Below, in pieces: positions 24,469-28,136 of a DNA stretch of 64,000 bases (positions are counted from its first letter, which is position 1; each line of letters opens with the position of its first letter). A program made the position numbers and the translations under genes. Source of the DNA: Promethearchaeota archaeon (lineage in GTDB: Archaea > Asgardarchaeota > Lokiarchaeia > Sigyniarchaeales > SOKP01); contig JBHLPW010000004.1 of NCBI GenBank assembly GCA_048939015.1, positions 50,663 through 114,662 of the forward strand, written 5' to 3'. Under the pieces are notes generated by a model. The model worked only from the letters and a program-made list of their open reading frames with translations, searched no databases and was not told the origin of the DNA.

Positions 24469-25011
24469 TTAAGCAAACCTTTGCTTATCTCTATGTTCTT
24501 TTACTGAGATTTCTCTTTCGTCTAGTCTATTAAGTCTAATTAAGTTTTCCTTAATTACTTTAATTTCAGCTTTTGTTATAATTTTATAATCTTTTAAATT
24601 ATCAAGAATTTCTTTTTCACTAAAGCCCTTATTATACAATTCTTGAAATTTCTCGATTGTCTCCTGATGATAAAAAATATATTGTTTATTTAGAAAGACT
24701 ATTAACCACTTTTTTTTCTCTTGATTCTGAGATAATTCAAATAACTCGTCTTGTATTACTTCAATGTGTTTTTCAAACTTTCGTGCTATTAACTCATCTT
24801 CAATTTTATAAAATTGTTTCATAAATTTCTGAAGTTTATTTTTAAAAAACAATTTTGGGATGTAAGATAAAATGAATAACAATAAAGTGATCCCGGACAT
24901 CCAAATTGCTGCAATGTGATTATAAATCGCAACAATGATTATTATGAAGACTAGAATTAGAAACCATTTTCTTCCAATGGTCTTAGTTATGACAATATAC
25001 TTTTTTGGCAA
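24469..25011 (-). CDS. Hypothetical membrane protein (two N-terminal TM helices)
   Basis: Two hydrophobic segments followed by a soluble charged domain. Confidence 0.7.
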   Translation of the reverse strand: MPKKYIVITKTIGRKWFLILVFIIIIVAIYNHIAAIWMSGITLLLFILSYIPKLFFKNKLQKFMKQFYKIEDELIARKFEKHIEVIQDELFELSQNQEKKKWLIVFLNKQYIFYHQETIEKFQELYNKGFSEKEILDNLKDYKIITKAEIKVIKENLIRLNRLDEREISVKEHRDKQRFA

Positions 25012-25084: not shown

Positions 25085-25091
25085 TAAAAAA
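25085..25091 (-). terminator. Oligo-T tract after the 5S precursor, a candidate archaeal terminator
   Basis: T6 run on the minus strand just past the processing stem; such runs are common in this AT-rich DNA. Confidence 0.4.
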
Positions 25092-25101
25092 GTAGACGAC
25101 A

Positions 25102-25286
25102 TATAACCACATAAAAAAGGCGTGACCGGGTATTTTCCTTGTATGCCATGACCGTAAGCTAACTTACAGTTTGTAGTTTCCCATAAACCGTAATTACAGT
25201 ACTATCTACAACGCTAAACAAGTTTAACTTCCGGGTTCGGATGGTTCCAGCGCCATAGCGAATTGCTATTGGTTCATGTGGTTATA
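25102..25286 (-). other. Precursor processing stem and bulge-helix junction enclosing the permuted 5S
   Basis: 14-bp stem UAUAACCACAUGAA (25286-25273) / UUUAUGUGGUUAUA (25115-25102); leader hairpin AUAGC-AAUUC-GCUAU; GGCG-CUGG-AAC pairs with CCGG-UCA-CGCC. Confidence 0.75.
25124..25244 (-). rRNA. rrf: 5S rRNA gene, circularly permuted (3' part 25244-25163, UUAG linker 25162-25159, 5' part 25158-25124)
   Basis: Minus strand carries the conserved CCGAACCCGGAAGUUAA. Helix I ACUGUAAG/CUUACGGU, helix II ACAAG/CUUGU, helix III ACCCGG/CCGGAAGU, helix V UUGUAG/CUACAA, loop E AGUA/GAA, helix IV CUGUAA/UUAUGG. Confidence 0.9.
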
Positions 25287-25321
25287 AACGCTAGTGTTAA
25301 CCATTATATAAGGTCGGTTAT

Positions 25322-25329
25322 TTTATAAG
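25322..25329 (-). promoter_or_regulatory. Candidate TATA box for the 5S precursor
   Basis: CTTATAAA about 35 nt upstream of the outer stem; a second candidate CTTATATAA lies at 25304-25312. Confidence 0.35.
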
Positions 25330-25427
25330 AAAATACCTACTTATATGGTTAATAGTAAATAGGAATAATACAAGCTATTAAAAAAAGTTTTCGGCTTGAG
25401 ACATAAAATTTAAAAGAATTAGTTAAA

Positions 25428-25994
25428 GTGGTGCTGTTTATAGTATTATTTCAATTAATAATCCAAGGAGTAAAATGGTACCAATTTCTGATTAATGCGA
25501 CTATAACAATTTTAGGAAGATCGCTTGACATTTTAAGCACGAGATATGTAACAAGAGAACTTAAATTAGAAACAAATCGAATTGCTCGTAAAATAGGCTG
25601 GCGTGGGATGATCTTACTTCAAATTCCAATAGTAATATTGGGATCATTAGATTTCTATTTTAGTTTTTTCATATTATGGTGGAGTATTTTTCTCTTTGCC
25701 AATAATATTGAGGGAAGTTGGTATATAAGAGAAGCTGGAGAAAAAGAGTATCAAAAAGAAATAAAATCAAGATTAGAAACCTCTAAAATATGGAAAATAG
25801 TTTTTGGAGAATTATCTTCAATTTTAAAATTTACTTTAGCAGGCGTTTTTATCATCATCTTCCTATTTATTTTTGAAGATCTTTTAGCTGTTTTTTTGAT
25901 TTCATTAGCTTTAATAATTCAAGGTATATTTGGAACTATTAGTTCTATTTTATATCTTTTAGAGTTGAAAAAAGATAAATCTAAAGAAGAATAA
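25428..25994 (+). CDS. Hypothetical multi-pass membrane protein
   Basis: Several hydrophobic helices; LDILSTRY....LETN motif. Confidence 0.7.
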   Translation: MVLFIVLFQLIIQGVKWYQFLINATITILGRSLDILSTRYVTRELKLETNRIARKIGWRGMILLQIPIVILGSLDFYFSFFILWWSIFLFANNIEGSWYIREAGEKEYQKEIKSRLETSKIWKIVFGELSSILKFTLAGVFIIIFLFIFEDLLAVFLISLALIIQGIFGTISSILYLLELKKDKSKEE

Positions 25995-26009: not shown

Positions 26010-28136
26010 TTAGTTTTTGCTTAAAAATTGCGCGTACCTTTTAAGACCAATATATATAAAGAAAATAGAAATTCCTCCCAAAAATATAATCATAACAATA
26101 GAGAGGGGAATTAAATAATCAATCATTGTTTGAGGGATTGAAAAAAAGAATTCAGTATTATAAATTACATTAGTATTATTTGCATAATCTCTTAAAACTA
26201 TAAAATAAGAATATTTACCAGGTTTTAGTTTCTCAATTGTTATTTGAAACAAATCATTGTTTTCTTCAATAATATTTGATGATCCATAATAATTATAATC
26301 GCTAAAATTACTTTTAGAATAACAGATGTATGTAGATTCAATCCCAGATTTATTTTCTTGAACTTGAATATTAAAAGTTGCTAAGACAGAAGTTTTAGGA
26401 TTTTTTGGGCAGCATTCTACACTAATAACTTCTGGCAATGTATTATCTGGCAGAGCTGTAAAATTAAAGTAAGAAGGAACTAAATTATGACCTGTAATCG
26501 ATACATTATAATCCTCATATTCTTCATTTGGAATACGAAACTTCACTAAACCATCTTCATCTGCATATGTGGTAAAATATTTTTCCCCAGATCCTTGAAT
26601 ATGAACTCGTGCAAAGGGAACGACTTTATCATCACTATCTTTTATTATCACTGAGACTAATTCGCCTTCATATATATTCTCAATAAACGGATTTAGCGCT
26701 GATTTAGGTGTATTTGTATAAATGTCAACTTCAGGATCTCCTAAAAGGCAATAGGTAAGGAGTTGCTTACGTTCAAAATCAAAATATGTTGCGGTTTCCC
26801 CTCTGTTAAAATAATCGCTATTTATATATGCTAATTTTGAATCATATAGCGCTTTACCTTGTTGAAACTTTTTATTTAAATAAAACTCTTGCCAAAAAAG
26901 TTTTGCATTTCCACGATTTAATTTTTCAAGATTGTAATCATCTAATAAATACCAAGTTACACGTAATCCTCCAATTGCACCAATGGCTCCACCTTTAGTT
27001 CGCTTAATTAATATTTCACCTATACTATTATCAGTAGTAGTATCATAACTTGAAGTTGAGCAAGCATCTAAGTAAACTAGAGAAGGTTTATCATCATTTG
27101 AACTTATAATAGCATCTGATGATGTATAACCTGCCCGTGATGGATTTCTGAAATAACTTGTTGGGAGACCATGTCCTGCCATTAATACTGTAGAATATCC
27201 ATCATTAAAATAGGTACGTAGTACTGCTTGAGTGAGATTACCAGCTTCTTCTATTAAATGAGTATATTGTAAGGATGTATCTATGTAGTTTTCAACAATA
27301 TAACTAGTTAAAAAACTCTCATATTCTCCGTTAGGATCTTCTCCACTAGGATAATCAGAAATTCCTCCTGCAAGTAACATTCTATGCATCCAATTACCTA
27401 TTTCTGGATTAGACTCGTATTTCAAAGTTTTATTTACCATTATTTCCAGTTCAAGTGCATTATTCGCTGGAAATCTCCCAACATATACTTCAGGATCCCA
27501 TGATATCTCATCTAAGCCATATAAATTATCCAGAGGAGATTCCCCCCATTCACCATCTTGATCACTATCCCATGTACCATCAAGATCGGCGTAATAATAA
27601 TCAGTAGGTTTATATTCATTATCTCCAACTGTTTCAGTTCTTCCATCCCCGTATCTATCAACATCTGGATTGTATACATATCGAATAGGGATTAAATCAT
27701 CCTGAGCATCGCCTGCTAATAATACCCATTGAATATTTTCAGTTTCATAATATGATTTAATCATATTCCTAATTTTTTCAGCATCATCAACACCCTCATA
27801 TAAACTGAAATTACTCAAAATAATTGTTTTAACTCCTTTTTCATTTTTCCATTCCATTAATGGTTTAACAGCATCAATAAAATCAGTTTTATTTGGTGTT
27901 ATAATTAACATCTCAATTTTAGGATCATACCAGAGTTCATTTAAGTGAACATAATCTATTTCTGGTAAAAATGACAAATCTACACTCAAATATCCATTAG
28001 ATGTCTCAATCGATTCTGAAGGAGTTCTCGTGTTTAAAAATATAGAATTGTGATAAAAGTTAACATTAATGATAGGGATGAAAATCAATACTAAAAGAAT
28101 TAAGTAGATAAATTTTTTAAGAGAAAGCCTAACCAT
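26010..28136 (-). CDS. Peptidase C25 (gingipain-like) surface protease, membrane-anchored
   Basis: WVLLAGD, TDYYYADLDG, VYVGRFP, catalytic AGHG and ACS, LLGDP; hydrophobic segments at both termini. Confidence 0.88.
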   Translation of the reverse strand: MVRLSLKKFIYLILLVLIFIPIINVNFYHNSIFLNTRTPSESIETSNGYLSVDLSFLPEIDYVHLNELWYDPKIEMLIITPNKTDFIDAVKPLMEWKNEKGVKTIILSNFSLYEGVDDAEKIRNMIKSYYETENIQWVLLAGDAQDDLIPIRYVYNPDVDRYGDGRTETVGDNEYKPTDYYYADLDGTWDSDQDGEWGESPLDNLYGLDEISWDPEVYVGRFPANNALELEIMVNKTLKYESNPEIGNWMHRMLLAGGISDYPSGEDPNGEYESFLTSYIVENYIDTSLQYTHLIEEAGNLTQAVLRTYFNDGYSTVLMAGHGLPTSYFRNPSRAGYTSSDAIISSNDDKPSLVYLDACSTSSYDTTTDNSIGEILIKRTKGGAIGAIGGLRVTWYLLDDYNLEKLNRGNAKLFWQEFYLNKKFQQGKALYDSKLAYINSDYFNRGETATYFDFERKQLLTYCLLGDPEVDIYTNTPKSALNPFIENIYEGELVSVIIKDSDDKVVPFARVHIQGSGEKYFTTYADEDGLVKFRIPNEEYEDYNVSITGHNLVPSYFNFTALPDNTLPEVISVECCPKNPKTSVLATFNIQVQENKSGIESTYICYSKSNFSDYNYYGSSNIIEENNDLFQITIEKLKPGKYSYFIVLRDYANNTNVIYNTEFFFSIPQTMIDYLIPLSIVMIIFLGGISIFFIYIGLKRYAQFLSKN

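What the first reader, a model, noticed from the sequence alone, without database searches (positions are those of the whole stretch)
25124..25244. Circularly permuted 5S rRNA gene
Seen in sequence: the minus strand reads CCAUCCGAACCCGGAAGUUAAACUUGUUUAGCGUUGUAGAUAGUACUGUAAUUACGGUUUAUGGGAAACUACAAACUGUAAG-UUAG-CUUACGGUCAUGGCAUACAAGGAAAAUACCCGGUC. The first 82 nt are the 3' two-thirds of a 5S rRNA, from loop C onward. The last 35 nt are the canonical 5' end. All five helices form, but the normal 5' and 3' ends of helix I are joined by a 4-nt loop and the gene is broken in loop C. It stands alone, with no 16S/23S nearby. Established: permuted tRNA genes (Thermofilum, Cyanidioschyzon), permuted SRP RNA (Thermoproteus) and permuted organellar 5S are known. 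I do not know of a permuted chromosomal 5S gene in a prokaryote but cannot confirm novelty. Inference: standard linear models would miss or truncate it.
Basis: partly seen in the sequence, partly recalled or inferred. Interest (0 to 1): 0.97.

Follow-up and report, generated by a model that had tools for sequence, protein, structure and literature searches.

The report
Permuted, spliced-into-a-ring 5S rRNA gene
This Asgard archaeon encodes its only detectable 5S ribosomal RNA with the back part first, between cut signals of the tRNA-splicing type, and public environmental RNA contains exactly the predicted cut-and-rejoined 121-nt ring, which explains why 5S genes look "missing" in this group.

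Summary
Window 25124-25244 (minus strand) is a circularly permuted 5S rRNA gene. Loop C to the helix I 3' strand comes first, then a UUAG tetraloop, then the normal 5' third.

- **Rfam:** the native locus scores below threshold (27.9 vs 38 bits), and the assembly has no other 5S candidate.
- **Cut signal:** leader and trailer form a bulge-helix-bulge (BHB) motif. Cutting after nucleotide 2 of each bulge and ligating restores an intact loop C.
- **RNA evidence:** contigs from four metatranscriptomes (three studies) cover exactly 25124-25244 and join 25244 back to 25124.
- **Distribution:** a covariance model of the permuted core finds one full-length copy in 120 of 135 genomes of the family (12 of 13 genera). 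None of the 47 sampled in two draws has a conventional 5S hit.
- **Variation:** members use two different break points that give the same mature sequence. Ten of 49 loci also carry a 30-31-nt BHB intron in loop C.
- **Sister family:** it has ordinary linear 5S genes.

Whether the ring itself sits in the ribosome, or is re-opened, is not settled. This scan has already found permuted 5S genes on other Asgard DNA. I found no published report.

The parts
25124..25244 (-). Permuted 5S rRNA body, 121 nt; this is the excised and ligated product
   Evidence: Read. Model R1 hits the core at 114.5 bits. RNA contigs cover exactly this span and join 25244 to 25124.
25163..25244 (-). 3' two-thirds of 5S: loop C, helix III 3' strand, loop B, helix II 3' strand, helices V and IV, helix I 3' strand
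   Evidence: Alignment to normal 5S genes; covariation.
25159..25162 (-). UUAG tetraloop joining the normal 3' and 5' ends of helix I (U..G conserved; UUCG, UUUG or UCCG in relatives)
   Evidence: Alignment A1. The closing pairs covary: A-U to G-C and G-C to A-U.
25124..25158 (-). 5' third of 5S: helix I 5' strand, loop A, helix II 5' strand, loop B, helix III 5' strand
25245..25254 (-). Leader half of the BHB: outer helix GGCG (25254-25251), central CUGG (25250-25247), bulge AA|C with the cut between 25245 and 25244
   Evidence: the junction is observed in RNA.
25119..25129 (-). Trailer half of the BHB: central CCGG (25129-25126, also the helix III 5' strand), bulge UC|A with the cut between 25124 and 25123, outer helix CGCC (25122-25119)
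   Evidence: the junction is observed in RNA.
25273..25286 (-). 5' strand of the long processing stem (contains AUAACCACAU)
   Evidence: Perfect complement to the trailer strand, conserved in relatives. It forms in the minimum-free-energy fold of the precursor.
25102..25118 (-). 3' strand of the processing stem (contains AUGUGGUUAU)
25255..25269 (-). Small leader hairpin AUAGC-AAUUC-GCUAU between the processing stem and the BHB
   Evidence: the stem covaries in relatives (AGUAGC/GCUACU, UAGCA/UGCUA).
25297..25352 (-). Conserved long hairpin in the 5' leader; function unknown
   Evidence: Fold; the same pairing is seen in other genera.
25375..25387 (-). A/T-rich box, a putative archaeal TATA element (relatives read AAAGUUUAAUUAUUAG)
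   Evidence: Conserved across genera by eye. Its promoter role is inferred, not tested.
25086..25091 (-). Oligo-T run just after the processing stem; a putative transcription terminator
   Evidence: Sequence; similar T runs in relatives. Inferred.

Best explanation
This is the organism's 5S rRNA gene, written in permuted order. A precursor is transcribed from the minus strand; the start near 25350 and the end near 25086 are inferred. Leader and trailer pair into a roughly 14-bp processing stem and then a BHB: outer helix GGCG/CGCC, central helix CUGG/CCGG, and two 3-nt bulges. The tRNA-splicing endonuclease EndA cuts after the second nucleotide of each bulge. The ligase RtcB joins 25124 to 25244. 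This recreates a continuous loop C and helix III and yields a covalently closed 121-nt RNA. Because helix I is closed by a conserved 4-nt loop, I think the ring itself is the 5S rRNA that enters the ribosome. Shown: the permuted order, the BHB geometry with its covariation, the joined RNA, and family-wide conservation as the sole 5S candidate. Inferred: which enzymes act, the transcript ends, and the ring as the mature ribosomal form.
For: 1. The ligated junction 25244->25124 ('goes back 121', no positional ambiguity) is present in RNA contigs of X15, X20 and X18, and as matching loose ends in X16. These are three studies. Cover stops exactly at 25124 and 25244. Contig length of 151 (three of the five contigs; the two in X20 are 143) equals 121 + 30, as expected for a circular unitig.
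2. All 49 classified family loci have a BHB at the one geometry that restores loop C. 46 have a perfect 4-bp centre and 3 have one A.C mismatch. Outer helices covary, for example GCG/CGC, UUAAAAUG/CAUUUUAA, UACGCG/CGCGUA and CACUAG/UUAGUG.
3. Two break points, GGUC|CCAU and CCGGAA|GUUAAAC, occur within the same genus and give the identical joined sequence.
4. In G017 an A>C change lies in the discarded part of the leader bulge, so the predicted mature sequence is unchanged.
5. The 5S fold is supported by covariation, including across the tetraloop.
6. One full-length copy is found in 120 of 135 family genomes. No RF00001 hit reaches the cut-off in 0 of 18 and 0 of 29 family genomes, including the one-contig genome G006.
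7. The genome encodes two EndA-domain proteins and RtcB.
8. Thermoproteus SRP RNA is a precedent: a permuted gene, BHB-processed, whose circular form is the functional one (PMC4731332).
Against: The RNA data are assembled contigs, not raw reads. They cannot show molecule ends, relative abundance, or whether ring and opened forms coexist. The RNA differs from this genome at 25191, so it comes from a very close relative, not from this strain. The motif has no inner helix next to the bulges; the inner side opens into the 5S body, so it is a relaxed BHB. The trailer's CCGG must choose between the leader and its mature helix III partner. The enzyme assignment is by analogy only. This assembly is 94.9% complete and lacks a 16S, so by itself it cannot exclude an unassembled linear 5S. 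A 2026 paper states that archaeal 5S, unlike 16S and 23S, is not processed by circularisation in the cultures studied (PMC12918454).
Confidence: 0.6

Rival explanations
1. The gene and the BHB cut-and-join are the same, but the ring is only an intermediate. An unknown nuclease opens or removes the UUAG linker, giving a linear 5S with conventional helix I ends. This is what is believed for circular pre-16S and pre-23S, and what happens with permuted tRNA genes.
For: Circular 16S and 23S intermediates that are re-linearised are the textbook archaeal pathway (PMC12918454; PMC7758197). Contigs cannot show ends. In g19 genomes such as G056 the linker carries about 30 extra nucleotides, which might be removed.
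Against: The linker is exactly 4 nt, U..G, in nearly all of 12 genera. It is mostly UUCG, a stable capping loop and a poor nuclease target, and its closing pairs covary. The RNA contigs run straight through the tetraloop. No processing signal is visible there.
Confidence: 0.32
2. The locus is a decayed or non-ribosomal 5S-derived element, and the true linear 5S gene lies in unassembled DNA.
For: This assembly lacks 16S and most of 23S. MAGs often miss rRNA genes.
Against: The locus is a single conserved copy in 120 of 135 genomes, with compensatory changes in every helix. One-contig genomes G006 and G069 carry it, and G006 has no other RF00001 hit. It is expressed and precisely processed. The functional loops (loop C, loop E) are invariant.
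Confidence: 0.03
3. The joint is an artefact. It would come from a genomic head-to-tail array, template switching, or k-mer assembly collapse in the RNA libraries, and the RNA would function as an unligated permuted linear molecule.
For: Contigs of RNA libraries can contain DNA.
Against: The same joint at the same base appears in four runs of three studies. It sits exactly at the BHB-predicted sites, and there is no cover of the genomic flanks. About 120 genomes show a single copy with a unique leader and trailer. An unligated molecule would leave the invariant loop C broken.
Confidence: 0.03

Closest known systems
Permuted, circular SRP RNA of Thermoproteus tenax and T. uzoniensis (Plagens et al. 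2015, eLife, PMC4731332)
   Same: A chromosomal archaeal gene for an essential structured RNA is written in permuted order. The new ends sit beside a functionally important loop. Leader and trailer form a BHB, and RNA reads span the ligated ends. The gene was 'missing' to standard annotation.
   Different: The RNA here is 5S rRNA. It occurs in an Asgard family of at least 12 genera rather than two species. The break point differs between relatives, and some copies also carry a BHB intron. EndA cleavage and protein binding were shown in vitro for the SRP RNA; nothing has been shown biochemically here.
Circularly permuted tRNA genes (Cyanidioschyzon merolae; Thermofilum pendens)
   Same: The 3' half is encoded before the 5' half. 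Maturation passes through a circular intermediate made by the splicing endonuclease and a ligase at a BHB. This comparison is from my own knowledge; Soma et al. 2007 is cited in PMC4267664.
   Different: In tRNAs the linker joining the native ends is variable and is removed by RNase P and tRNase Z to give a linear product. Here the linker is a conserved tetraloop with no known opening activity.
Circular pre-16S/23S rRNA and circularly permuted 23S rRNA of archaea (PMC12918454; PMC7758197; bioRxiv 10.64898/2026.03.23.713588)
   Same: A BHB within a long processing stem, cut by EndA and ligated into a circle. Circular or permuted 23S can be the form present in the ribosome.
   Different: Those genes are collinear with the mature fold, and the permutation arises only at the RNA level. 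Here the gene itself is permuted and ligation is needed to rebuild loop C. PMC12918454 explicitly excludes 5S from this pathway in the cultures studied.
Permuted organellar 5S rRNAs (Valach et al. 2014, PMC4267664)
   Same: A 5S rRNA with permuted gene order that standard covariance models miss.
   Different: Those are mitochondrial genes. I know of no BHB or EndA pathway there (I did not read the paper for this), and they are not archaeal chromosomal genes.

Membership tests
5S rRNA (Rfam RF00001) | Scores at or above Rfam's gathering score (38 bits) as a collinear sequence | tested here: not met
   27.9 bits, with the 5' third mis-paired. This is expected for a permuted gene.
5S rRNA (Rfam RF00001) | Full-length sequence similarity to bona fide 5S once re-ordered | tested here: met
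   nhmmer against an HMM of five sister-family 5S genes: re-ordered 36.6 bits over positions 4-114, native 27.2 bits over 26-114. The same holds for all 15 relatives tested. Infernal could not be run on a re-ordered sequence with the tools available.
5S rRNA (Rfam RF00001) | Helices I-V supported by compensatory changes; invariant loop C, loop E and loop A motifs | tested here: met
   94% of cells paired, 13 of 32 pairs with double changes, 0 of 500 shuffles reach this. Helix III covaries across the junction: CCCGG/CCGG, CCUGG/CCAG, CCUGA/UCAG, CCCAG/CUGG. GAUAGUAC, GGGAA and GGUCAU are invariant.
5S rRNA (Rfam RF00001) | It is the genome's 5S gene: one per genome and no other 5S | tested here: met
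   It is the only RF00001 candidate in this assembly. One copy is found in 120 of 135 family genomes. No conventional 5S hit in 18 + 29 family genomes, including the one-contig genome G006.
5S rRNA (Rfam RF00001) | Present in the large ribosomal subunit | not testable with these tools
   Needs ribosome purification or cryo-EM.
BHB-processed permuted RNA genes (Thermoproteus SRP RNA type) | Leader and trailer form a 4-bp helix flanked by 3-nt bulges, next to an outer helix | tested here: met
   GGCG-CUGG-AAC with CCGG-UCA-CGCC in the window. All 49 of 49 family loci show this at the productive geometry, and the outer helix covaries. Unconstrained BHB-like geometries are common by chance, about 15 per roughly 9200 position pairs at this locus. 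Only the position-specific match is informative.
BHB-processed permuted RNA genes (Thermoproteus SRP RNA type) | RNA molecules carry the ligated junction at the predicted sites | tested here: met
   The joint 25244->25124 appears in RNA contigs of four runs from three studies.
BHB-processed permuted RNA genes (Thermoproteus SRP RNA type) | The splicing endonuclease and RtcB ligase are encoded | tested here: met
   Two PF01974 hits (104.9 and 72.6 bits) and one PF01139 hit (570 bits) in the same genome.
BHB-processed permuted RNA genes (Thermoproteus SRP RNA type) | EndA cleaves the motif in vitro, and the mature RNA is circular (RNase R, gel mobility) | not testable with these tools
   Biochemistry is needed. 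Contigs cannot show molecule ends.

The most novel reading that the evidence does not exclude
The working 5S rRNA in the ribosomes of this Asgard family, and probably of many other Asgard lineages, is a covalently closed circle made by the tRNA-splicing machinery. Because the product is a ring, the break point in the gene is free to drift. Three positions are seen within one order, and BHB introns in loop C may act as seeds for new break points through tandem duplication and loss.
Probability: 0.55. Interest if true: 0.9.

Novelty: new variant of a known kind. Interest (0 to 1): 0.86.

Why it matters
5S rRNA is universal and is normally the easiest RNA gene to find. Here a whole family of Asgard archaea, the closest prokaryotic relatives of eukaryotes, depends on cutting and rejoining to make it.

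- **Pathway.** It extends the moonlighting role of the tRNA-splicing machinery to 5S rRNA, the one rRNA thought to be exempt from that pathway.
- **Annotation.** It explains the absence of 5S annotations in these genomes. About 15 families of the phylum sampled here had no conventional 5S hit. It also gives annotators a concrete model to add.
- **Evolution.** It offers a natural series of break-point shifts, plus introns in a 120-nt RNA, for studying how permuted genes arise.
- **Ribosome biology.** If the ring is the mature form, a ribosome would carry a circular 5S. That bears on assembly, stability and exonuclease resistance.

Tried and rejected
- **Rfam and ARAGORN.** Rfam at gathering threshold gave nothing in the window. 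ARAGORN found no tRNA.
- **Single-sequence folding.** The minimum-free-energy fold of the 121-nt stretch is uninformative (z = -0.9). Alternative pairings win, so thermodynamic folding alone would not have shown the 5S fold.
- **Infernal on the re-ordered sequence.** I used nhmmer and covariation instead.
- **Genome-collection pattern scan.** The scan was too loose. I used it only to read organism names from the true hits.
- **Unconstrained BHB finder.** It returns 10-30 chance candidates per locus in this A/T-rich DNA. BHB-like geometry alone is therefore not evidence.
- **Model R1 outside the family.** R1 is narrow (effective sequence number 0.88). Its silence in most other Asgard families, and at the differently broken G020 locus, is not evidence of absence.
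- **RNA cover of leader, trailer and promoter.** None was seen in the contigs, so the transcript ends stay inferred.
- **Flanking ORFs.** 24469-25011 and 25428-25994 have no Pfam family, and no functional link to the 5S is apparent.
- **sigma-70 promoter scanner.** Not used, because it is not applicable to archaea.

Full report
**1. Observation**

It consists of three parts:
- the 3' two-thirds of a 5S rRNA, from loop C (CCAUCCGAAC) to the helix I 3' strand (ACUGUAAG);
- a UUAG loop;
- the normal 5' third (CUUACGGUCAUGG ... AAUACCCGGUC).

Rfam finds nothing at its gathering score in the whole window. With relaxed thresholds RF00001 aligns 25161-25273 at 27.9 bits (cut-off 38). It forces unrelated leader sequence into helices I-III with many non-pairs. 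That sub-threshold hit is the only 5S candidate in the 4.86-Mb assembly.

**2. It is a 5S rRNA once re-ordered**

I cut the gene at the predicted splice sites and opened it at the tetraloop. The sequence then aligns over positions 4-114 of an HMM built from five ordinary 5S genes of the sister family, at 36.6 bits. In native order it scores 27.2 bits over positions 26-114 only. All 15 relatives tested behave the same way.

I aligned the permuted core in native order from 15 genomes (A1) and imposed the 5S helices. The result was:
- 94% of cells pair;
- 13 of 32 pairs show changes on both sides;
- no shuffle out of 500 reaches this;
- sliding the partners drops pairing to about 40%.

Helix I, closed across the tetraloop, has two compensatory pairs. 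Helix III, which spans the gene's two ends, also covaries between genera: CCCGG/CCGG, CCUGG/CCAG, CCUGA/UCAG and CCCAG/CUGG.

**3. The flanks form a splicing-type motif**

Upstream and downstream of the body lie three paired elements:
- a long processing stem, AUAACCACAU (25285-25276) with AUGUGGUUAU (25112-25103);
- an outer helix, GGCG (25254-25251) with CGCC (25122-25119);
- a central 4-bp helix, CUGG (25250-25247) with CCGG (25129-25126).

The central helix is flanked by two 3-nt bulges, AAC and UCA. This is a bulge-helix-bulge motif as defined in PMC4731332. The inner side opens into the 5S body rather than into a helix. Cutting after the second nucleotide of each bulge and ligating gives ...ACCCGGUC|CCAUCCGAAC..., an intact helix III and loop C, in a 121-nt circle. 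The precursor's minimum-free-energy fold forms the processing stem and the outer helix.

BHB-like geometries as such are frequent by chance in this A/T-rich DNA: about 15 among roughly 9200 position pairs at this locus. The weight therefore lies in the motif sitting at the single productive position, and in the comparative data.

**4. Comparative evidence**

A covariance model of the permuted core (R1) finds one full-length copy, at 69-120 bits, in 120 of 135 genomes of the family and in 12 of 13 genera. Within the order it hits 118 of 131 genomes of this family and none of 19 from three other families. Conventional 5S hits over Rfam's cut-off are 0 of 18 and 0 of 29 in the family. The sister family has normal genes of 53-68 bits. 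One-contig genomes of the genus (G006, G069) carry the permuted copy, and G006 has no other RF00001 hit.

I classified 49 loci:

| Type | Break or feature | Loci | Genera |
|---|---|---|---|
| A (as in the window) | GGUC\|CCAU | 25 | g1 20, g20 3, g13 1, g18 1 |
| B | CCGGAA\|GUUAAAC | 14 | nine genera |
| B + insert | type B break plus a 30-31-nt insert in loop C | 10 | g1, g14, g19, g20 |

Types A and B coexist within two genera (g1 and g20). After cutting at nucleotide 2 of each bulge they give the same mature sequence. All 49 loci have the BHB at the productive geometry: 46 with a perfect centre and three with one A.C mismatch. The outer helix changes completely between lineages while staying paired. 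In G017 the leader bulge reads ACG instead of AAG, and the changed base falls in the discarded part.

The insert is itself a BHB intron. Its centre is UCCG/CGGG, its bulges are AAA or AAG and AAC, and its inner helix is 3-9 bp. Excision gives CCCAUCCGAA|CCCGG in nine of the ten loci; the tenth (G047) has the same centre and bulges but an inner helix shorter than my 3-bp threshold. One of the nine, G095, has its intron at a different site, CCCAU|CCGAAC.

Further variants occur beyond the family:
- A genome of another family of the order (G020) shows a third break, in loop B.
- Two genomes of other Asgard families matched by R1 (G165, G155) have the type B break.

**5. RNA evidence**

Six metatranscriptome runs hold part of the stretch. 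I laid four of them, from three studies.
- Their contigs cover exactly 25124-25244 and nothing of the flanks.
- Three runs show the joint '25244 to 25124, goes back 121' with no positional ambiguity.
- The fourth has loose ends that are the same junction.
- Three of the five contigs are 151 nt, which equals 121 + 30, as expected for a circular unitig at k = 31; the two contigs in X20 are 143 nt.

The ends of the gene are therefore joined in RNA at the base predicted from the BHB. All runs differ from the window at 25191, so the RNA comes from a very close relative. Contigs cannot show molecule ends or abundance.

**6. Enzymes and context**

The genome encodes two EndA-domain proteins and RtcB. 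That these enzymes perform the reaction is an inference from the Thermoproteus SRP RNA case, where the endonuclease was shown to cleave the motif.

A partial 23S lies on another contig and no 16S is assembled. The 5S is therefore unlinked from the large rRNA, and the assembly is incomplete for rRNA. The neighbouring ORFs have no Pfam family. A conserved A/T box near 25375-25387 and a T run at 25086-25091 are plausible promoter and terminator; both are inferred.

**7. Organism**

Contigs of family members bear titles such as 'Promethearchaeota archaeon'. This phylum belongs to the kingdom Promethearchaeati, the Asgard archaea.

**8. What remains open**

Both leading readings share the cut-and-join step. 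I put that step at about 0.95.

They differ on whether the ring is the mature 5S (0.6) or is re-opened at helix I (0.32). I favour the ring for four reasons:
- the linker is a conserved 4-nt U..G loop, mostly UUCG, with covarying closing pairs across 12 genera;
- the RNA contigs read through it;
- no opening signal is visible;
- the SRP RNA precedent is a functional circle.

Free drift of the break point fits either reading.

**9. Novelty**

Full-text searches found no report of a permuted or BHB-processed archaeal 5S. A 2026 paper states that 16S and 23S, 'but not 5S', are circularised.

This scan has noted the same layout before on other Asgard DNA: Heimdall-group, Odin, Hel and Njord lineages. 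I confirmed in part that it reaches beyond this family.

New here are:
- the family-wide census;
- two break points within one genus that converge on one product;
- BHB introns inside a 5S gene;
- junction-bearing RNA for this locus;
- a sister family with ordinary linear 5S genes.

Noticed in passing
L065, L066, L070, L073, L075, L040, L043, L045, L054 (about 5-35 nt after the core end); L053: Ten of 49 family 5S genes carry a 30-31-nt insert in loop C that folds as a canonical BHB intron. Its excision restores CCCAUCCGAACCCGG. G095 has its intron at a different site. Introns in a 5S rRNA gene appear unreported.
   Followed up: partly
L007 (G020, another family of the same order), minus strand around locus 1400-1640: A third break position. 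The gene starts in loop B (GAA|AACACCCGAAC...) and ends ...CAUCGGAA|AG, with helix I closed by a 7-nt linker. Model R1 misses it.
   Followed up: partly
L073:1079-1190 (G062), 780 nt downstream of the intact copy: A decayed second copy keeps only helix V 3' strand, the helix I hairpin, helix II 5' strand and a type-A-like trailer (CCCGG-ACA-CG). It sits next to a functional type B + intron gene. It is a possible fossil of duplication and turnover between break types.
   Followed up: partly
A1 columns 43-72; G014, G008, G002, G009, G069 and others with 131-133-nt core hits: About 30 extra nucleotides extend the helix IV terminal loop as a hairpin in several genomes (a 5S expansion segment). G056 also has about 30 extra nucleotides in the helix I linker.
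   Followed up: no
window 25297-25352 (-): A conserved long hairpin in the 5' leader (AACCAUAUAAG ... CUUAUAUAAUGGUU). Its 3' strand resembles the complement of the processing-stem 5' strand (AACCACAU), so alternative pairing during transcription is conceivable. Function unknown.
   Followed up: no
L004, L025, L030 (G026, a one-contig genome of the sister family): Three ordinary 5S genes in tandem, 374-375 nt apart (64.5 bits each). A tandem array is the arrangement from which permuted or re-linearised orders could be carved.
   Followed up: no
Phylum sample: Conventional 5S hits split sharply by family: f9 30/32 and f14 14/14, against f7 0/17, f23 0/7, f16 0/6, f20 0/6 and others. Many more Asgard families probably have non-collinear 5S genes.
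   Followed up: partly
window 26010-28136 (-): A 708-aa ORF with a Peptidase_C25 (gingipain-type) domain, E = 4.7e-55. It is unrelated to the 5S locus.
   Followed up: no
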